A DNA stretch of 64,000 bases, from NCBI GenBank assembly GCA_000004985.1, contig GG738853.1; one strand, written 5' to 3'. The position numbers and the translations under genes were made by a program. The DNA comes from Naegleria gruberi. Lineage: Eukaryota. Below the pieces are notes generated by a model. That model did no database searches and was not told where the DNA came from. It saw only the letters and a program-made list of their open reading frames with translations. Shown here piece by piece: positions 18,715-36,468 of the stretch (position 1 is its first letter; every line of letters starts with the position of its first letter).

Positions 18715-20243
18715 ATGGGAGCTTTTGCATCAAAGAAAGATAAAACAGATAACCCTAAAAAACCCCGAAACTCTTCAAATTCTCAACCAACAAATTCCTC
18801 AACAAGTGGTGTCAACAACAATACATCAACTTCATCTTTATCATCTAATTCTTCTACTGGACCTGTGGTAAAGAATTCACTTTCTGTTTTATTGTTGGGA
18901 ACGGGTGAAACTGGTAGGTTTTATATCTCATAGTTTAGTTTGAATAATTAATTGTTTCGTATAAATTTATTCGAAATTAGGTAAATCAACATTATTTAAA
19001 CAACTTGAATTGATTAATGGAGTGGGTATCATTAAAGAAAATGAAAAATCAATGTGGGCTACTCTAATTCATGGCAATGTAATTTCTGACATGAAAACTT
19101 TGATTGGAATTGTTGAGGAAATGGATGTTCAAGAAGTTTCGGATGAAATGCACGAATTAATTCAAGAAATATTAGAATTACCTGATCAAAATGTTACTAT
19201 TAATGAAGAATTATGTGAAAAGTTGAAGAAACTGTGGAATTATGAAGTAGTTAGGGAAGCTTATGATAATAGAGATCAAGCTTTGGATTCTGCTGAATAG
19301 TAAGTTTCTAATAATTTATAGTAATTTAGACGATTTGGGTTTTTAACATTTTCATAACATGAATTTCTCTAATTGTTGTTGACCTTTCGAATAATTATTC
19401 TTTTACAGTCTCTATAATAATATTGATAGAATTGCCAAGCCAGATTACTCACCAACAGTTGATGATGTTCTTCATTGTCGTGTAAAGACACTTGGTGTGC
19501 ATCATGTTGAACTCATGATGGATGGAAACTTTAAATTTAAATTGATTGATGTTGGTAAGTAGTTTCTATAAATGGATTTTGAGAATATTTATTGATTTGT
19601 TTACAATAATTTTTCTATAATTATTATTATAATATTTATAGGTGGTCAACGTTCTGGTAAGTTTTGATGATTTTTCTTGGTAGAATTTAACATTTAAAGA
19701 ACGAAGAAAGTGGCTTGAACGTAAGTTTTTTTATTCGAATTGGATATTTATAGTAATTTAATATTGGAAATGAATAATTGAATGATTGGAATATTGAAAT
19801 AATTTCGAATTGGATGAAAAATAGTCATGTCAGAAGTTGATGCTGTCATTTTCATGACATCTTTAGCTGAATTTGATCAAGAATGTTATGAGGAAAAAGG
19901 ATTTAAACGTGTTGTTGAATCTTTGGAAACATTTGAAAAGGTCATTAACAACAAACTCTTCCAAAAAGTTCCATTCATTCTCATGTTAAATAAGCGTGAC
20001 TTATTCGAGAGGAAGATTGCAAAGAAGAGTTTCAAGAAATATTTCCCAAATTATACAGGTGATGAAAAGAATCCCCAACAATGTATTGATTTCATTTCGA
20101 AAATGTTTTTGGGTAAATGTAAGGAACGATCAACTGATACCATTCTAGTTCAACCTCATTGTGCTATCAGTAAGGAAGAAACAGAACAAATGCTGCAACA
20201 TGCAAAGAACTTTGTAATAGGTCAATACTCAAAGAAGAAGTAG
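18715..20243 (+). CDS. Heterotrimeric G-protein alpha subunit, 6 exons: join(18715..18913, 18981..19299, 19409..19554, 19642..19656, 19700..19720, 19825..20243), about 372 aa.
   Basis: N-myristoylation-type MGAFASK. G1 LLLGTGETGKST is split by intron 1. Switch I is RVKTLGV. G3 DVGGQRSERRKW is encoded across 15-nt and 21-nt micro-exons. G4 NKRD. G5-like region is HCAIS. All introns are GTAAGT/GTAGGT...AG, and frames were checked against the ORF track. Confidence 0.85.
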
Positions 20244-23193: not shown

Positions 23194-23598
23194 TTATAAA
23201 TCATCTAATTTCAATTTCTTTTGATAATATTTTCCAAAACGAGAGAATTGTCTAAAATCCTTTCTATCCTTCATTTCATAATTCTTCTTATGATCCTTTC
23301 TACAATATCCGACATTTCTAGAAATAAATCCACTGACAAATCTTCGTTCTTCAAAATGTTTCACTTCACTACAAAGAGAAACTTCATGATCCTTCTCAAT
23401 CAAATGACCATGAATTGAAACAGCCAATCTATCCTTTAAATTCTTATTAATATCCTTTCTATATTCCTTATCATTATTATAACGTTCTTTAATATTGATT
23501 TCAGAGGCATGGGCACGACATTTCCAACTGGTGCAAAGAGGGCACTTTTTAATGGTTTGATTAGAGGCTACATTAAATCTGACTCCGTCTCTCTTCAT
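23194..23598 (-). CDS. Small basic Cys/His-containing hypothetical protein (134 aa).
   Basis: ORF only. Cys/His spacing (CPLCTSWKCRAH ... HGHLIEKDHEVSLC) hints at a zinc-binding module. Divergent to the pseudokinase gene with about a 150-bp spacer. Confidence 0.3.
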   Translation of the reverse strand: MKRDGVRFNVASNQTIKKCPLCTSWKCRAHASEINIKERYNNDKEYRKDINKNLKDRLAVSIHGHLIEKDHEVSLCSEVKHFEERRFVSGFISRNVGYCRKDHKKNYEMKDRKDFRQFSRFGKYYQKKLKLDDL

Positions 23599-23748
23599 CT
23601 GTTGTGTGTTCTTTCGAGTTGTTTTTTTTTAGCTTGGAATTTTAGTGAAAGTTCTTCTGCGCAGGAATTTTTAAAGTTTTTTCAAAATCTAAAAATAAAA
23701 CAGTTTACAATATTTTGAAGTGTTACAATTTTTAAAAAAATATCTTGA

Positions 23749-24663
23749 ATGAATATGGAGGAAGTATTGAATTTTTCAGATTCGTTTGAAATTATTAGAA
23801 AAATTGGTTCGGGAAGAAAAAGTCAAATTTTTGAAGGAATTTATGTGAAATCAAATCTTGATGAAAAATGTGTCGTTAAGATTTTTACAAATTACAACAA
23901 TTCAGAAGAGAGCAAGATTAAAAGACAAGTTAAAATACTTGAAAAACTGGGTGATGGACCGAATATTGTAAAATTGAAAGATGTGATTTGGGATTTACCT
24001 AACAAGGCAATTGTTTTGGAATTTTGTGAAAATTGCAGCTTGAATTCATGTGGAAAGTTGACCGATATGGAAATTAGATATTATATGAGGGAATTATTGA
24101 AAGGTGTGGAGTATTGTCATTCTATGAGAGTGATTCATAGAAATATAAAACCAAAAAGTGTACTAATTGACCAAAAGAATAAGAAATTGACATTAATCAG
24201 TTGGGGTTTAGCTGAATTTTATCATGATGGAAGAGAATTGAATACCAGATTGTCAACTAGATATTTCAAAGCTCCAGAATTATTATTGAACGTGAAAAAT
24301 TATGATTATTCGATTGATATGTGGAATTTGGGATGTGTTTTTGCAAAATTGATTTTTGGAAAGGAACCATTCTCTCCTGGAAGAGATAATTTTGATCAAA
24401 TGGTGAAAATGATAAAAGTGCTAGGAAGTGAGCAATTATTTGAATATTTGGAAAGATACTCAATTGAATTGCCTTCCTATTTGGAAGGATTGAAATCATA
24501 TGAAAAACAGGAATGGAGAAATTTTGTAAAAGATGAAGAATTTGTGAATGAGCTAGCTCTTGATTTTTTAGATAAATTACTAAAATATGATCCTAAAGAA
24601 AGAATGACGGCAAAGGAGGCACTGCATCATCCCTATTTTGCATCATTCCCCAATGATGACTAA
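23749..24663 (+). CDS. Casein kinase II alpha-like protein lacking catalytic residues (predicted pseudokinase).
   Basis: Collinear with CK2-alpha over the whole kinase domain (CHSM..H..IKP....ID......L..WGLAEFYH, DYS.DMW.LGC, HPYF). HRD is replaced by HRN (nt ~24136-24144). DWG is replaced by SWG (~24199-24207). The alpha-C Glu is Gln. The Gly-loop reads GSGRKS instead of GRGKYS. The N-terminal about 35-aa CK2 segment is missing. Confidence 0.8.
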   Translation: MNMEEVLNFSDSFEIIRKIGSGRKSQIFEGIYVKSNLDEKCVVKIFTNYNNSEESKIKRQVKILEKLGDGPNIVKLKDVIWDLPNKAIVLEFCENCSLNSCGKLTDMEIRYYMRELLKGVEYCHSMRVIHRNIKPKSVLIDQKNKKLTLISWGLAEFYHDGRELNTRLSTRYFKAPELLLNVKNYDYSIDMWNLGCVFAKLIFGKEPFSPGRDNFDQMVKMIKVLGSEQLFEYLERYSIELPSYLEGLKSYEKQEWRNFVKDEEFVNELALDFLDKLLKYDPKERMTAKEALHHPYFASFPNDD

Positions 24664-24810
24664 TCTATTACAAACTAGTTTAAATTAGAATTTTAACAAA
24701 CTATTGTAAACTAATCATTTGATTCATTTTTGGAATTTTTTTCCTTTTCGAATGATAACTATATCAGAGAAACGAAATCCATTAATTCGTAACAGTTTCA
24801 GTACAATAAA

Positions 24811-25908
24811 TTGACTTGTTGTAAACTCGACCTTCAATTTCAATCTTTAAAAAAAATGCGCAAAAAACGAAGACCAGCCAAACCAACTCGATTTATTGCA
24901 AAAACACTAATATATGCCGATCATGACGACAGTGATGATGATGCTGATGATAATAACATTTTCATTTCTAACCAATTCCTCAACGATGATGTGATTTATG
25001 AAATTTTATCATTCGACAATGATTTTAAATTTATTGTAATGAATTGTGCACTGGTTTCAAAACAGTGGTTTCGAGTCATTTTGGAGAGATTGAAACAACT
25101 TGCAGTTCGAATTGATATTGGGAAAATGTCAAGGGTGCAAGGTCAATTTTTGGAAAATATTGCAAGTGTGAAAGCACTTAATGCGATTAATCATTTAATA
25201 CAGTATCGTGATGCCTTTAAGTTGATGAAAGGATTGACTACATTTGATATTTCTTACACTTATGTTCATGATCGAGAGGCCAAAATTATTAGTGAAATGA
25301 CACAATTGACTTCTCTTAATGTTAGTAATAGTATTAGGATTAAGAAAAGTATTGCATATTTTAGAGAAATGAATAATTTGACTTGTTTGAACATTGGCAA
25401 TAATGGTATTGGAGTTGAATGTGCCAAACACGTTAGTGAAATGAAACAATTGACCATTCTTCATATTTGTGGAAATGGTATTAAGTTTGAAGGGGCTAAA
25501 TTTATTAGTGAACTGCAACAGTTGACCAAACTTGATGTTAGTAGCAATAATATTGGAGAGCAAGGGGCTAAATATATTAGTCAATTAAAACAATTGACTA
25601 ACCTTGATATTTATTCAAATCGAATAGGTGCGCAAGGGGCCAAACATATTAGCGAAATGAAACAGTTGACAAGACTTAACATTTCTTACAATGATATCAA
25701 TGTTGAAGGTGCCAAATATATTAGTGAAATGAAACAATTGATTAATCTTAATATTACCAAAAATAATATTGGTGATGAAGGTGCTAGACACATTAGTGGA
25801 ATGAATCAATTGACTAATCTTTTTATTGGGAACAATAATATTAGCAATGCTGGATTTCAAAACATTTGTGTGTTCTTGGTTGATACATTCGTATTTCTAA
25901 GCGAATAA
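24811..25908 (+). CDS. F-box-like / leucine-rich repeat (RNI-type) protein.
   Basis: N-terminal F-box-like segment (VIYEILSFDNDFKFIVMNCALVSKQWFRVI). About 9 tandem 24-aa LRRs with the form MKQLTxLNIxxNxIGxEGAKxISE. Confidence 0.65.
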   Translation: MTCCKLDLQFQSLKKMRKKRRPAKPTRFIAKTLIYADHDDSDDDADDNNIFISNQFLNDDVIYEILSFDNDFKFIVMNCALVSKQWFRVILERLKQLAVRIDIGKMSRVQGQFLENIASVKALNAINHLIQYRDAFKLMKGLTTFDISYTYVHDREAKIISEMTQLTSLNVSNSIRIKKSIAYFREMNNLTCLNIGNNGIGVECAKHVSEMKQLTILHICGNGIKFEGAKFISELQQLTKLDVSSNNIGEQGAKYISQLKQLTNLDIYSNRIGAQGAKHISEMKQLTRLNISYNDINVEGAKYISEMKQLINLNITKNNIGDEGARHISGMNQLTNLFIGNNNISNAGFQNICVFLVDTFVFLSE

Positions 25909-25971
25909 TGATTTGAAATAATCATTTTTGATCCATTTATGTACATTAAAATATTAAAAAGTTTTAACTTT

Positions 25972-28900
25972 CTAATTCTTTGTTGGTGTGCTCTCAGTAG
26001 GGTTACTTTCAGAATTGGTTGCGCTCTTATTGGATGGATTGTGGTTGACTGCCTTGAGCTGATTCTCAATGAATTGAGTGTGTTTGATAGTGACCTTTCT
26101 CGATTTGCTATCTCCAATAATACTCTTCAGTAAGCTACTCTTCTTTTCGCTGACTTGTGGATTCTTATTTGCTTCAGCATTGGCTTTAACTTTCATCAAT
26201 TGCTCCATCAGCTCACTATTCACTTGACCTGGAGCAAGAGGTGAATTATTGTTCTTCTCAGTGCCATTGTTGCTTGTGGAAGATCCACCGCTGGTCGAAG
26301 TTGATGAAGTTGGTGCCTTGAAAGATAATTCTTCACCATATTCACATCCAAATACATGTTTGAAAGCTTCTTTTTCCTCGTGAAGTAACTTGAGAGCAGT
26401 TTTATCCTTTTGTTGCAAATCTTGCCACAATGTTGTAATCTTGTCACGGACTTGAACCTTTTCTTCCTTAATTACGTCAAGACGTTTTTCTTTATCTTGC
26501 TTTTCCTGTTCGAGGTCCGCAATTTCACGTTGGAGAGCAGCCAACAATTCCTTCTTTTGTTGAATCTCATTGCTCACCTGAACAGTTCTTACTTGCAAAA
26601 GCATTTGTTCCTGTTGGATTTGCTGATGGAACTTGAGATTTTCTTTAGCTTGGGTATGCACTGCAGCTCTTTCCTTTCCCAATTTGTACATTTCTGAAGA
26701 ATTTTGAAGACTAAGTCCTCTGTTGGCGTATATTTTAACATTGCAAATGTCAGAAATACAATTACCAAGTGATTCTTTCCATTCATCTCTGTCTCCAGTG
26801 GTACTTGTTGTGAGAATGTATTCATATTGAGAACCTTTAGTAATGACACGAATTGGAATGTCACACTCATCAATAACATCATAAAATCCTCTTTTTGGTG
26901 GAGGCACAGGTAAATTCCTTCCTCCACTGGTTGTGATGTTTAGATTGTTGCTATTGTTCCCAAAGAAGGTATCAGTATCAATAAAGTGGAAGAAAATAAA
27001 GTGTAAATTCTTTCCGACAGTTAATGTTAGTTGATGATATTTAGATTTGGTTGAATCTGAATTGGTTGGGGTATTTGATTGTTCCTTCTTCTTTCCAAAC
27101 ATGGTTGCCTTTCGAGTAAAGGATTGGAAAAGTGATGAAGAACCTTCATCAGATTCATTCTTTTCCTCAAGTAATACCAACATGTCAGTAAATTGATAAA
27201 TTGTAAATCTTCCCTCATTGTATTGTGGTTTCAGATTCTTTGAACCAGCCATCTGAGCCAATACATTAGAGAATGTATCACCTTGTTTTCCAGGAACAGG
27301 AGGTGGTAAAACTCTCTTACCTGTACTCGATACTGTAGCTGCAGTAGAAGTTGTTTTTGTTGGAACAGATGGTAAACTTCTTGGAGTCACGGATCCTGAG
27401 TTTTTGGAGTCATTACTTGGTGGTGTTGGCAGTGCTACGGAATTTCTTTGTGACTTCACTTGTCTATACTTGACATGGAAGGAGGCCTTTCGCAGGAACT
27501 TTCTGTTTGGTTGGACAAAACCAGGATAAATTGGTTCGATCATTCCATAAATTTCGTACATGTATCTCACATTATCAAAGTTTCTCTTTTGTTCATTAAT
27601 GTAGGAGGCAATCTTTTCAATTTCATTCACAACTTTTTGTAAGTTTTCAAATTCGGTATGTTCTTCAGGAGTATTAGACAAAATTTCAGAGAGCAACATT
27701 TTGTATCTTGGAATTCTTTGAATTGGTAAAATGAGGAAACTACAGAAATCTGATTTGATTCCCTTTTGCATTTGATAGCACTCTGTTAAAAATTCCTTAA
27801 ATTTCTTATTGGATTTTTTCATCTTGTCAAACATTTCAGTTGCTCTATCGTGGTTATTAATATAGGTTGTGTAAACTTTCAAAAATGGAACAAGATGACC
27901 GAATGGTTTACCGATAGAATCATAAATTCTGTATGATGAAGGTTGATTCTTCTTTTTAAGATTTGGGTCATCTTTTCTCTTGATGACAAACCCAACAGTT
28001 CTTGGACTAGTTAATTCACCAGAACCATTTGGAGTGGATGTTGAGTTGTTTGAAACTTGAGAGGATATGCTGGAGGTTGGAGATGGGAGAGATTCTTCTT
28101 CCTTGATTTCAATTTTGACTTCAGGATTTGCCTTTTCCAAATCATTCAATAATGTTTGATTAATGTTTGAAATTTGGTTAATGTTGGCAAACAGGACTTG
28201 AATCTCTGATTGACCTTTAAAAACACCTTTTCCGTGGTCTCTATTTTCAATTAGTGGTTGATAGTACAAATTAAGGAAGGACTTGAGATTTTGAACGTAG
28301 GTCTTTTCTGTCTCGATGGTCTCCTTAATCAACTCTTGACGTTTTCTACCCTTTTTAAGAGATGGATCTCTACGTATAAAATTGAAGAATCTAACACGTG
28401 TGAATAATTGTGGAATACGTTCTCCCAAAATTGAAATAGCCTTATCCTTGTCAAGTGTCGCCTTTGGTGTGGAAACAGTACTAATCTCGTCATCCTCTAC
28501 TACAGAAGATGATTCAGTAGTTTCGTCATCATCAAAATTAATAATTGATGGTGACTGTAATGTTTCCTCAAGATCTAGCTTTGGAATAATAGGTGAATCT
28601 AAACTATTCGAAACTCCAAAACTTCCATTACTGCTTATACTTTCATGAATAGTTGGAGATGAGCTGCTATTATCTGTACTGTCCATATCAGAAGTAGATC
28701 TCTTTCTAAAATGACTATCCGAAACTGAACCTAAAGCTGTCAAATTACTCAAACTAAATTTTGTTTCAAAATTCTCCAAACTATCAGCACTTGTTATTCT
28801 TGAATGAAGATTATTTGGGCTGTCAATCGATAGAATGACCTTTTCTTCATTACCACTTTCTGATTCAGCAAGAACATTCGAATCCAAATTACTTTCTTGG

Positions 28901-29103
28901 ATTTCATCATGATCAATATTATCTGTTGATGTGGATGATGGTGGTGAAGTATCATTATTAGCCTCTATTGTTGGTGGTGATGTTACACTGTTACCTCCTT
29001 TCCCATACATCAAGGAAGACAATTTTGGAGGAGGTTTAGGTGGTTGATTACTATACACCCTTGATGGTTTCATTGGTGGAGGTGTAGGAGGAAGATTAGA
29101 CAT
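25972..29103 (-). CDS. RhoGEF (DH domain) protein with PH-like region and C-terminal coiled coil (1043 aa).
   Basis: DH core QELIKETIETEKTYVQNLKSFLNLYYQPL...ILPIQRIPRYKMLLSEIL. Downstream heptad-rich segment (QQIQQEQMLLQ...LEQEKQDKEKRLD). The N-terminus is Pro-rich. Confidence 0.75.
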   Translation of the reverse strand: MSNLPPTPPPMKPSRVYSNQPPKPPPKLSSLMYGKGGNSVTSPPTIEANNDTSPPSSTSTDNIDHDEIQESNLDSNVLAESESGNEEKVILSIDSPNNLHSRITSADSLENFETKFSLSNLTALGSVSDSHFRKRSTSDMDSTDNSSSSPTIHESISSNGSFGVSNSLDSPIIPKLDLEETLQSPSIINFDDDETTESSSVVEDDEISTVSTPKATLDKDKAISILGERIPQLFTRVRFFNFIRRDPSLKKGRKRQELIKETIETEKTYVQNLKSFLNLYYQPLIENRDHGKGVFKGQSEIQVLFANINQISNINQTLLNDLEKANPEVKIEIKEEESLPSPTSSISSQVSNNSTSTPNGSGELTSPRTVGFVIKRKDDPNLKKKNQPSSYRIYDSIGKPFGHLVPFLKVYTTYINNHDRATEMFDKMKKSNKKFKEFLTECYQMQKGIKSDFCSFLILPIQRIPRYKMLLSEILSNTPEEHTEFENLQKVVNEIEKIASYINEQKRNFDNVRYMYEIYGMIEPIYPGFVQPNRKFLRKASFHVKYRQVKSQRNSVALPTPPSNDSKNSGSVTPRSLPSVPTKTTSTAATVSSTGKRVLPPPVPGKQGDTFSNVLAQMAGSKNLKPQYNEGRFTIYQFTDMLVLLEEKNESDEGSSSLFQSFTRKATMFGKKKEQSNTPTNSDSTKSKYHQLTLTVGKNLHFIFFHFIDTDTFFGNNSNNLNITTSGGRNLPVPPPKRGFYDVIDECDIPIRVITKGSQYEYILTTSTTGDRDEWKESLGNCISDICNVKIYANRGLSLQNSSEMYKLGKERAAVHTQAKENLKFHQQIQQEQMLLQVRTVQVSNEIQQKKELLAALQREIADLEQEKQDKEKRLDVIKEEKVQVRDKITTLWQDLQQKDKTALKLLHEEKEAFKHVFGCEYGEELSFKAPTSSTSTSGGSSTSNNGTEKNNNSPLAPGQVNSELMEQLMKVKANAEANKNPQVSEKKSSLLKSIIGDSKSRKVTIKHTQFIENQLKAVNHNPSNKSATNSESNPTESTPTKN

Positions 29104-36393: not shown

Positions 36394-36397
36394 GGTG

Positions 36398-36468
36398 TAG
36401 GAAGACAGGGAATCGAACCCTGATCTTAGGAACCACAATCCCATGTTCTACCACTGAACTATCTCCCT
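36398..36468 (-). tRNA. tRNA-His (anticodon GUG).
   Basis: Folded by hand on the minus strand. Acceptor AGGGAGA/TCTTCCT (one G-U pair). D-arm GTTC-AGTGGTA-GAAC. Anticodon stem TGGGA/TCCTA with loop TTGTGGT. T-arm CAGGG-TTCGATT-CCCTG. Discriminator A. No encoded CCA and no intron. Confidence 0.8.

What the first reader, a model, noticed from the sequence alone, without database searches (positions are those of the whole stretch)
23749..24663. CK2-alpha paralogue missing three catalytic residues: predicted pseudokinase
The protein aligns with casein kinase II alpha along the whole kinase fold, including the CK2-specific DWG in place of DFG and the HPYF C-terminus. The catalytic-loop Asp is Asn (HRD to HRN). 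The Mg-binding Asp is Ser (DWG to SWG). The alpha-C Glu is Gln. The Gly-rich loop is altered (GSGRKS). The N-terminal segment that holds CK2-alpha constitutively active is missing. It could be a decoy subunit that binds CK2-beta or CK2 substrates.
Basis: partly seen in the sequence, partly recalled or inferred. Interest (0 to 1): 0.75.

Follow-up and report, generated by a model that had tools for sequence, protein, structure and literature searches.

The report
Catalytically dead CK2-alpha paralogue in Naegleria
This Naegleria gruberi gene encodes a well-folded copy of the kinase CK2-alpha that has lost four residues needed for catalysis yet is still kept intact by natural selection, so it is most likely a non-enzymatic "pseudokinase" of unknown role, which is interesting but not revolutionary.

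Summary
ORF 23749..24663 (+) is NAEGRDRAFT_64289 of Naegleria gruberi, not a dictyostelid gene, and it is annotated only as "predicted protein". It matches CK2-alpha over the whole kinase domain (E 1.5e-93; 49.7% identity to human CSNK2A1). The AF2 model has pLDDT 91.6 and TM 0.90 to CK2-alpha crystal structures.

Four catalytic residues are replaced, not three: E81Q, D156N, N161S and D175S. Lys68 and Trp176 are kept. The N-terminal clamp is 26 residues shorter, with no upstream exon, and K74-K76 has become EES.

A second N. gruberi strain on an ENA metagenome contig (99.3% identical) carries the same substitutions, so they are not sequencing errors. Between the strains dN/dS is 0.20 (P 0.001-0.03 against neutrality). 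Neutral simulation never keeps the ORF open at this divergence. It is therefore a selected gene, not a pseudogene.

No orthologue appeared among 1.84 billion representatives or in the metagenomes. Fungi have independently degraded CK2-alpha-like proteins.

The function is inferred: non-catalytic binding, either of acidic clients (P+1/P+3 basic sites kept) or of CK2-beta (hot spots I15/F28 kept, beta4-beta5 loop altered). The decoy idea is untested.

Verdict: a new variant of a known kind, of moderate interest.

The parts
23749..24663 (+). Complete intronless CDS of the CK2-alpha-like pseudokinase (304 codons plus TAA). This is NAEGRDRAFT_64289 / XP_002680501.1 / UniProt D2V628. The NCBI model starts at Met3 (23755) and gives 302 aa.
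23599..23748 (.). 150-bp AT-rich (GC 0.247) intergenic spacer shared with the divergently transcribed neighbour (23194..23598, minus strand). It holds in-frame stops 2 and 12 codons before the ATG and no exon for the CK2 N-terminal segment.
23806..23823 (+). Altered Gly-rich loop GSGRKS (canonical GRGKYS). Both glycines and the Ser are kept; Tyr50 is Lys.
23878..23880 (+). Retained beta3 (VAIK-type) lysine, K44 = human Lys68.
23887..23925 (+). Former polybasic stretch, TNYNNSEESKIKR. K74-K76 have become E-E-S with a 3-residue insertion. K77, K79 and R80 are kept.
23926..23928 (+). Q60 in place of the alpha-C glutamate (human Glu81), the salt-bridge partner of Lys68.
   Evidence: identical in strain 2
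23992..24009 (+). Shortened and altered beta4-beta5 loop, DLPNKA (canonical DPVSRTPA, two residues deleted). This loop is part of the CK2-beta contact region 103-108.
24136..24159 (+). Catalytic loop HRNIKPKS (canonical HRDVKPHN). The catalytic base Asp156 is Asn and the metal-binding Asn161 is Ser. H154, R155 and K158 are kept.
   Evidence: identical at N132 and S137 in strain 2
24199..24207 (+). SWG in place of DWG. The Mg-binding Asp175 is Ser; the CK2-specific Trp176 and Gly177 are kept.
   Evidence: identical in strain 2
24208..24279 (+). Well-conserved activation loop and P+1 loop (LAEFYHDGRELNTRLSTRYFKAPE). The acidic-substrate-recognition residues R191, R195 and K198 and the APE Glu are kept.
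24628..24639 (+). HPYF motif at the end of the kinase domain, as in canonical CK2-alpha.

Best explanation
The locus is a functional protein-coding gene of Naegleria gruberi. It encodes a CK2-alpha-derived pseudokinase.

SHOWN: The protein keeps the complete CK2-alpha fold, including the regulatory spine, the CK2-specific Trp of the DWG motif, the activation loop and the P+1 loop. It has replaced the catalytic base (D156N), both metal ligands (N161S, D175S) and the alpha-C Glu (E81Q). It lacks the N-terminal clamp that holds CK2-alpha in its active state. Selection still removes amino-acid changes from it.

INFERRED: It cannot carry out canonical Mg-ATP-dependent phosphotransfer, so it acts by binding. 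The mode I favour is competition with, or re-targeting of, CK2. It would occupy acidic S/T-x-x-D/E-type clients through the retained anion-binding residues (R80 and R155 for P+3; R191, R195 and K198 for P+1) without phosphorylating them. It might also occupy CK2-beta through the retained hot-spot surface (L41->I, F54, V67, I69). The retained Lys68 and the largely hydrophobic ATP pocket leave metal-independent nucleotide binding possible. Which partner it binds is not established.
For: Identity and fold:
- Pkinase 1.7e-55; CK2-alpha 1.5e-93.
- AF2 pLDDT 91.6, pTM 0.90.
- Foldseek TM 0.90, rmsd about 1.6 A to Arabidopsis, human and maize CK2-alpha.
- Inside the CK2-alpha clade relative to CDK outgroups.

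Loss of catalytic residues:
-. The combination is unique among 39 and among 248 relatives.
- It meets the sequence definition of a pseudokinase.
- Deleting the first 30 residues of CK2-alpha abolishes activity (Sarno 2002, as cited in PMC9608649).

Not an error and not a pseudogene:
- A second strain (L031, 99.27% identical over 4629 bp) has the same Q60, N132, S137 and S151 and an open frame over 247 codons.
- dN/dS is 0.20, from 7 non-synonymous and 8 synonymous differences; binomial p = 0.003. P(<=7 of 15) is 0.001-0.03 under six mutation models.
- 0 of 600 neutrally evolved copies keep an open frame at >=20% amino-acid divergence.
- The GC1>GC2>=GC3 pattern is like the neighbouring genes.
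- 41 of 56 positions that are >=95% conserved in canonical CK2-alpha are retained. Five of the 15 changes sit in the active site or Gly-rich loop.

Retained binding surfaces:
- R-spine 4/4; activation loop 0.69 identity to human against a canonical mean of 0.77.
- R80, R155, R191, R195 and K198 kept; L41I, F54F, V67V and I69I (roles from PMC9608649).
Against: - No biochemical or expression evidence exists.
- I could not confirm that N. gruberi has a canonical CK2-alpha or a CK2-beta, and the competition model requires them.
- The CK2-beta contact region is more diverged than in a typical canonical member: 0.39 identity to human against a canonical mean of 0.59 and minimum of 0.36. The beta4-beta5 loop has a 2-residue deletion and P104L. 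K74-K76, part of the basic substrate/CK2-beta-acidic-loop surface, is now acidic.
- Retention of the six key basic residues is not statistically remarkable, because the protein keeps 73% of all highly conserved positions.
- Each strain carries a radical change at a site that is nearly invariant in canonical CK2-alpha: G151R in NEG-M and Y209S in strain 2. Constraint is therefore looser than in the enzyme.
- No orthologue was seen outside N. gruberi, so the gene may be young or dispensable.
- The dN/dS estimate rests on only 15 differences from one metagenome contig.
Confidence: 0.7

Rival explanations
1. The protein is an atypical but active kinase or phosphotransferase. It would use a non-canonical mechanism, such as metal-independent catalysis like CASK, compensating residues like WNK, or a new substrate class like SelO or POMK.
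For: Lys68, both Gly-loop glycines, the hydrophobic ATP-pocket residues V66 and I174 and the hinge E114 are kept. The R-spine and activation loop are in active-like form. New basic residues appear near the active site (Y50K, H160K). HER3 and JAK2-JH2 also have HRN, lack the alpha-C Glu, and show trace activity (PMC13519141).
Against: HER3 and JAK2-JH2 keep their metal ligands. Here the base (D156) and both metal ligands (N161, D175) are all gone, together with E81. No known active kinase lacks all four. CASK keeps the catalytic Asp (my own knowledge). The N-terminal clamp needed for activity of free CK2-alpha is absent.
Confidence: 0.07
2. The gene is a young, lineage-restricted duplicate drifting towards loss. 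It would be translated, or at least still open, but have no important function. The remaining constraint would be residual, for example selection against misfolding of an expressed protein.
For: No orthologue was found beyond N. gruberi. Between-strain differences are denser here, at 2.0% against 0.46% for the rest of the contig. Radical changes sit at canonically invariant sites in each strain (G151R, Y209S). The branch is long, 0.86 against a canonical median of 0.59.
Against: The protein is about 50% diverged from every CK2-alpha yet has no stop or frameshift, while 0 of 600 neutral simulations survive even 20% divergence. dN/dS of 0.20 is clearly below 1. The excess divergence is mostly synonymous: dS is 0.059 against 0.015, whereas dN is 0.012. 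The structural core and the spines are intact, and the model is confident.
Confidence: 0.15
3. The apparent substitutions are a sequencing, assembly or annotation artefact, or the locus is a dead pseudogene.
For: The public record rests on a single reference genome, the product is named only 'predicted protein', and there is no literature.
Against: An independent environmental strain, assembled separately, carries identical residues at all four positions it covers and an open frame. The ORF is collinear with CK2-alpha with only small indels. The selection tests reject neutrality.
Confidence: 0.02

Closest known systems
Canonical CK2-alpha (human CSNK2A1; maize, Arabidopsis and Cryptococcus CK2-alpha crystal structures)
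   Same: - Same fold: TM 0.90, about 1.6 A rmsd, 47-50% identity.
- The Trp of the DWG motif, the R-spine, the activation loop, the P+1-loop residues R191/R195/K198, the R80/R155 anion site and HPYF are all kept.
- The CK2-beta hot spots are L41 (as Ile) and F54.
   Different: - Lacks E81, D156, N161 and D175.
- Tyr50 is Lys.
- The N-terminal clamp is 26 residues shorter.
- K74-K76 is acidic and carries a 3-residue insertion.
- The beta4-beta5 loop is 2 residues shorter.
- The branch is about 1.5 times longer.
HER3/ErbB3 and the JAK2 JH2 pseudokinase domain (HRN-type pseudokinases)
   Same: They have HRD->HRN together with loss of the alpha-C Glu. The kinase fold is retained, and they act allosterically or as scaffolds for an active relative (PMC13519141).
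   Different: Those domains keep their metal-binding residues and bind Mg-ATP; here both metal ligands are lost. They belong to a different kinase group (TK, not CMGC). This protein is free-standing and is not a receptor or a tandem domain.
Dead-paralogue regulators of an active paralogue (FAM20A-FAM20C; trypanosomatid deoxyhypusine synthase 'prozyme')
   Same: An inactive duplicate of an enzyme is kept by selection and is thought to work through the active paralogue's complex (PMC3663545 abstract).
   Different: Those complexes are demonstrated biochemically. Here no partner is known, and the presence of the active paralogue in the genome was not verified.
Ascomycete CK2-alpha-like degraded proteins (Fusarium poae OBS24581.1, Escovopsis weberi KOS17055.1, Cladobotryum mycophilum KAK5993866.1, Geoglossum umbratile KAI9782834.1)
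   Same: They are CK2-alpha-derived and mostly short (about 304-311 aa; the Geoglossum protein is 353 aa). The Asp of the DWG motif is lost and the Trp is usually kept. They are labelled 'casein kinase II subunit alpha' or 'hypothetical protein'.
   Different: - Their signature is different: K158R plus D175G. E81 and N161 are kept, and D156 is kept except in Geoglossum.
- They are only 37-42% identical to the Naegleria protein, less than canonical CK2-alpha is.
- The overlap of derived sites is at chance level, so the origin is independent.

Membership tests
CK2-alpha (CMGC/CK2 family) | Kinase domain whose closest relatives by sequence and by structure are CK2-alpha | tested here: met
   All 60 best PDB sequence hits and all 50 best Foldseek hits are CK2-alpha or alpha'. 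It lies inside the CK2 clade relative to CDK outgroups.
CK2-alpha (CMGC/CK2 family) | DWG motif (Trp in place of the Phe of DFG) | tested here: inconclusive
   Trp176 and Gly177 are kept but the Asp is Ser, giving SWG.
CK2-alpha (CMGC/CK2 family) | Complete catalytic residue set (K68, E81, D156, N161, D175) | tested here: not met
   Only K68 is kept. The others are E81Q, D156N, N161S and D175S.
CK2-alpha (CMGC/CK2 family) | [quoted passage not shown] | tested here: not met
   The protein is 26 residues shorter. There are in-frame stops upstream and no exon. The role of the segment is given in PMC9608649.
CK2-alpha (CMGC/CK2 family) | Polybasic stretch K74-R80 (KKKKIKR) | tested here: not met
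   K74-K76 have become E-E-S with an insertion. K77, K79 and R80 are kept.
CK2-alpha (CMGC/CK2 family) | Basic residues R191, R195 and K198 of the P+1 loop and the R80/R155 anion site, which confer acidophilic substrate recognition | tested here: met
   All five are retained. Their roles are given in PMC9608649.
CK2-alpha (CMGC/CK2 family) | Binds the CK2-beta dimer to form the alpha2-beta2 holoenzyme | not testable with these tools
   The hot spots are kept (L41 as Ile, F54), but the beta4-beta5 loop is altered. No complex prediction or binding assay was available, and Naegleria CK2-beta was not retrieved.
Pseudokinase (sequence-defined) | Lacks at least one of the VAIK Lys, the HRD Asp and the DFG Asp | tested here: met
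   The HRD Asp and the DFG-equivalent Asp are both lost. The definition is in PMC13519141.
Pseudokinase (sequence-defined) | Intact protein-kinase fold | tested here: met
   AF2 pLDDT 91.6 and TM 0.90 to CK2-alpha. The Pkinase match is full length.
Pseudokinase (sequence-defined) | No phosphotransfer activity | not testable with these tools
   This needs an in vitro kinase assay. It is inferred from the loss of the base and both metal ligands.
Pseudokinase (sequence-defined) | Gene maintained by selection (a functional pseudoenzyme and not a pseudogene) | tested here: met
   dN/dS is 0.20 between two strains, P 0.001-0.03. 0 of 600 neutral simulations keep the ORF.
Non-functional pseudogene | Frameshifts or stops, or dN/dS near 1 | tested here: not met
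   The frame is open in both strains and dN/dS is significantly below 1.

The most novel reading that the evidence does not exclude
The protein is a naturally evolved 'dominant-negative' CK2 catalytic subunit. It would be a dedicated, selected pseudokinase that titrates CK2-beta and/or shields acidic CK2 clients. That would give a supposedly unregulated, constitutively active kinase an endogenous protein-level brake. It would also be the first functional pseudokinase described from the CK2 family, and the independently degraded ascomycete CK2-alpha-like proteins would point to a recurrent solution.
Probability: 0.22. Interest if true: 0.65.

Novelty: new variant of a known kind. Interest (0 to 1): 0.42.

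Why it matters
CK2 is regarded as constitutively active, and how cells restrain or direct it is a long-standing question. A CK2-alpha copy that keeps the substrate groove and part of the beta-subunit surface, has shed all catalytic chemistry and is still under selection would be a natural experiment in non-catalytic CK2 function. To my knowledge, pseudokinases are rare in the CMGC group.

In practical terms, public databases label the protein 'predicted protein', and UniProt labels it 'non-specific serine/threonine protein kinase'. The enzyme label is probably wrong.

The significance is limited. The gene has so far been seen only in N. gruberi, its partners are unknown, and pseudokinases as a class are well established.

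Tried and rejected
1. Upstream exon for the N-terminal segment: rejected. There are in-frame stops, the spacer is 150 bp, and tblastn of human residues 1-45 finds nothing near the gene.

2. Close orthologues: none found. The word-index search shows nothing between 51% and 100% identity. The exhaustive phmmer search of 1.84e9 representatives shows only the protein itself. The metagenome scan reaches at most 42% identity over the full length.

3. Shared ancestry with the fungal degraded CK2-alpha-like proteins: NJ suggested it, but I rejected it as long-branch attraction. Overlap of derived sites is at chance level, the signatures differ, and identity is lower than to canonical CK2-alpha.

4. 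Finding Naegleria's canonical CK2-alpha or CK2-beta: not achieved.
   - The best ENA hit, P0015, comes from an unrelated sample.
   - Analysis of the word-index retrieval showed it returns the query's own nearest relatives, so a further 13-CPU-hour search was not justified.
   - The afdb50 fold library was unavailable.

5. Literature: no paper describes a Naegleria CK2 pseudokinase or any CK2-family pseudokinase. The Stentor kinome preprint lists 17 CK2s but says nothing about dead ones. Kwon et al. 2019 (PMC6997932) is not held. The project PRJEB11402 appears in no held paper.

6. Expression proxy from run-level assemblies: uninformative. The protein has no Logan member, and neither do its neighbours. 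The second-strain contig spans intergenic DNA and both strands, so it is genomic.

7. The 5' end in the second strain: not covered. L030 ends at window 23671 and L031 starts at 23918.

Full report
**What is there.** Window 23749..24663 (+) is a single uninterrupted ORF of 304 codons ending in TAA. It is 100% identical to the Naegleria gruberi protein XP_002680501.1 / EFC47757.1 / UniProt D2V628, locus NAEGRDRAFT_64289, which lies on a 695,587-bp scaffold. The public model starts at Met3 and gives 302 aa. The surroundings are ordinary gene-dense chromosome. They hold a Myb protein, a G-alpha fragment, an ABC transporter, a 134-aa protein with no Pfam match transcribed divergently 150 bp upstream, an LRR protein, a RhoGEF and one tRNA-His.

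**Checking the observation.** Pfam Pkinase matches residues 13-297 at 1.7e-55. All 60 best solved-structure matches by sequence are CK2-alpha, the best at 1.5e-93. Against it the protein is 49.7% identical over 288 columns, human residues 37-330.

- E81->Q60.
- D156->N132 (HRD->HRN).
- D175->S151 (DWG->SWG, with the CK2-specific Trp kept).
- Gly-rich loop GRGKYS->GSGRKS.
- HPYF at residues 294-297.

- The second metal ligand, Asn161, is also lost. HRDVKPHN has become HRNIKPKS, with S137 at that position.
- K74-K76 of the polybasic stretch is now Glu-Glu-Ser within a 3-residue insertion.

Lys68 is retained as K44. Residue 11 aligns with human Asp37, so the protein is 26 residues shorter at the N-terminus. 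In-frame stops lie 2 and 12 codons upstream, only 150 bp separate the ATG from the neighbour's start codon, and tblastn with human residues 1-45 finds nothing nearby. The N-terminal clamp is therefore truly absent.

In an alignment of 39 CK2-alpha relatives this is the only sequence with Q, S and S at E81, N161 and D175. The same holds across all 248 relatives retrieved.

**Fold.** AlphaFold2, run on a 40-sequence alignment, gives mean pLDDT 91.6 and pTM 0.90. Foldseek places the model on Arabidopsis, human, maize and Cryptococcus CK2-alpha structures at TM 0.90 and rmsd 1.5-1.9 A over about 296 columns. A distance tree puts the protein inside the CK2-alpha clade relative to CDK outgroups, on a branch of 0.86 against a canonical median of 0.59.

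**Is it a real, selected gene?** Three lines of evidence say yes.

1. Neutral decay is excluded. I evolved the coding sequence under an AT-biased substitution model. Only 2.5% of copies kept an open frame at 10% amino-acid divergence, and 0 of 600 did at 20% or more, even with indels ignored. The real protein is about 50% diverged from every CK2-alpha, and about 15 points more than typical canonical members are from human.

2. The pattern of change is not random. Of the 56 positions that are >=95% conserved among canonical CK2-alpha, 41 are retained. [quoted passage not shown] 3. I found a second strain. Three neighbouring genes have >=90%-identical copies in ENA metagenome assembly ERZ929261. 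Contig k127_218197 (L031, 4628 bp) is syntenic and 99.27% identical to window 23918..28546. It carries codons 58-304 of the gene with an open frame and the same Q60, N132, S137 and S151.

The two alleles differ at 15 sites, 7 non-synonymous and 8 synonymous. With N = 601 and S = 140 this gives dN 0.0117, dS 0.059 and dN/dS 0.20, with binomial p = 0.003 against omega = 1. Placing 15 random substitutions under six mutation models gives P(<=7 non-synonymous) between 0.001 and 0.03. It also gives a 49-77% chance of at least one stop, and none is observed. The estimate rests on few differences from one contig, but every test points the same way.

Constraint is nevertheless looser than in the enzyme. 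Each strain has a radical change at a site almost invariant in canonical CK2-alpha: G151R in NEG-M and Y209S in strain 2.

**Distribution.** Three searches found no orthologue:
- A word-index search of 5.8 billion clusters found nothing between 51% and 100% identity.
- An exhaustive phmmer search of 1.84 billion representatives found only the protein itself above about 52% full-length identity.
- A metagenome scan found at most 42% identity.

As far as these collections show, the gene is confined to N. gruberi. Orthologues that have diverged to about 50% identity with restored or different motifs cannot be excluded.

The screen also turned up ascomycete CK2-alpha-like proteins from Fusarium, Escovopsis, Cladobotryum and Geoglossum. 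They carry K158R and DWG->GWG/GWD/GWS and are mostly about 305 aa long. NJ pairs them loosely with the Naegleria protein. I reject that pairing for three reasons. Overlap of derived sites is at chance level (6 against 4.9, 7 against 6.6, 8 against 5.5, and 4 against 3.6 expected). Identity is 37-42%, lower than to canonical CK2-alpha. The signature substitutions differ. CK2-alpha has therefore lost catalysis at least twice, independently.

**How it most likely works.**

Shown:
- The catalytic base, both metal ligands and the Lys-Glu salt bridge partner are gone.
- The N-terminal clamp is gone. Its deletion inactivates free CK2-alpha (Sarno 2002, cited in PMC9608649).

Inferred: canonical Mg-ATP phosphotransfer is not possible, so the protein acts by binding.

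The parts that remain conserved are the parts that bind things:
- The activation loop has 0.69 identity to human, against a canonical mean of 0.77.
- The P+1-loop residues R191, R195 and K198 are kept.
- The R80/R155 anion site that reads the P+3 acidic residue is kept.
- K77, K79 and K83 are kept.
- The CK2-beta hot spots are kept: Leu41 as Ile, and Phe54, together with V67 and I69 (roles from PMC9608649).

Other features count against a simple CK2-beta decoy:
- The beta4-beta5 loop is 2 residues shorter and has P104L.
- K74-K76 is now acidic.
- The CK2-beta contact region is at the low end of the canonical range (0.39 identity to human, against a mean of 0.59 and a minimum of 0.36).

My committed reading is a non-catalytic competitor or adaptor in the CK2 system. 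I slightly favour client (acidic-motif) binding over CK2-beta sequestration. Metal-independent nucleotide binding remains possible, because Lys68 and the hydrophobic pocket (V66, I174, E114) remain. None of this is demonstrated. I also could not confirm with these tools that N. gruberi has a canonical CK2-alpha and a CK2-beta. CK2 is part of even Giardia's minimal kinome (PMC3218828), so their presence is a reasonable inference.

**Comparison with what is known.** By the sequence definition, which is loss of at least one of the VAIK Lys, the HRD Asp and the DFG Asp (PMC13519141), this is a pseudokinase: it has lost two of the three. It resembles HER3 and JAK2-JH2 in having HRN and no alpha-C Glu, but those domains keep their metal ligands and bind Mg-ATP. 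Conceptually it resembles dead paralogues that regulate an active paralogue, such as FAM20A and the trypanosomatid prozymes.

As for family membership, it is a CK2-alpha homologue by descent. It fails three defining features of the working enzyme: the catalytic residue set, the N-terminal clamp and the full polybasic stretch.

I found no paper describing a CK2-family pseudokinase or this gene.

**Verdict.** The pseudokinase interpretation is supported, and the decoy mechanism remains open. The finding is a new variant of a known kind. It is a good, clean example, but it is single-species, uncharacterised and of a well-established class, so interest is moderate at about 0.4.

Noticed in passing
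proteins P0211, P0205, P0042, P0039, P0185 (not in the window): Ascomycete fungi (Fusarium poae, F. sambucinum, F. venenatum, Escovopsis weberi, Cladobotryum mycophilum, Geoglossum umbratile) encode CK2-alpha-like proteins, mostly about 305 aa long, with K158R and DWG->GWG/GWD/GWS. This is an independent, apparently undescribed CK2-derived pseudokinase lineage. One of them is auto-named 'BUD32' in UniRef.
   Followed up: partly
proteins P0103 (Clydaea vesicula KAJ3227978.1, 1918 aa) and P0257 (Lobulomyces angularis, 2069 aa): Chytrid proteins annotated as 'casein kinase II subunit alpha' contain about 7 tandem CK2-like kinase-domain stretches. They are either giant multi-kinase proteins or fused gene models of a tandem array.
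   Followed up: no
window 23918..24663 compared with 24664..28546 (locus L031): Differences between the two strains are concentrated in the pseudokinase gene: 15 in 746 bp against 18 in 3883 bp (Fisher p = 6.6e-5). dS is 0.059 against 0.015 in both neighbours, and 10 of the 15 differences fall in codons 105-187. The upstream contig L030 is only 96.7% identical, so divergence varies regionally. The cause is unresolved; it could be old haplotypes, gene conversion, a chimeric assembly or chance.
   Followed up: partly
window 27728 (RhoGEF gene 25972..29103, minus strand); L031: The second strain's contig has a 1-bp deletion inside the RhoGEF coding sequence, which splits the called gene into 305-aa and 569-aa products. 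This is either a real frameshift allele or a metagenome assembly error.
   Followed up: no
window 23749..24663 (database annotation): UniProt D2V628 carries the automatic name 'non-specific serine/threonine protein kinase'. With D156N, N161S, D175S and E81Q, that enzyme label is probably wrong.
   Followed up: yes
window 23194..23598 (minus strand): The divergent neighbour 150 bp upstream (NAEGRDRAFT_78730, 134 aa, Cys/His- and Lys-rich) has no Pfam match. It is conserved in the second strain as a 136-aa product on L030.
   Followed up: no
window 24856..25908 (+): The LRR protein immediately downstream (Pfam LRR_6/LRR_8 repeats with the motif 'GAKxISEMKQLT') shows 6 non-synonymous and 3 synonymous differences between the strains (dN/dS about 0.49). 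It is the least constrained of the three genes compared.
   Followed up: partly
window 36397..36468 (minus strand): A single tRNA-His(GTG) gene is the only Rfam or ARAGORN hit in the 64-kb window.
   Followed up: no
window 19827..20243 (+): A 138-aa ORF matches only the C-terminal part (profile positions 205-331 of 333) of the G-protein alpha-subunit domain. It is presumably one exon of a multi-exon G-alpha gene.
   Followed up: no
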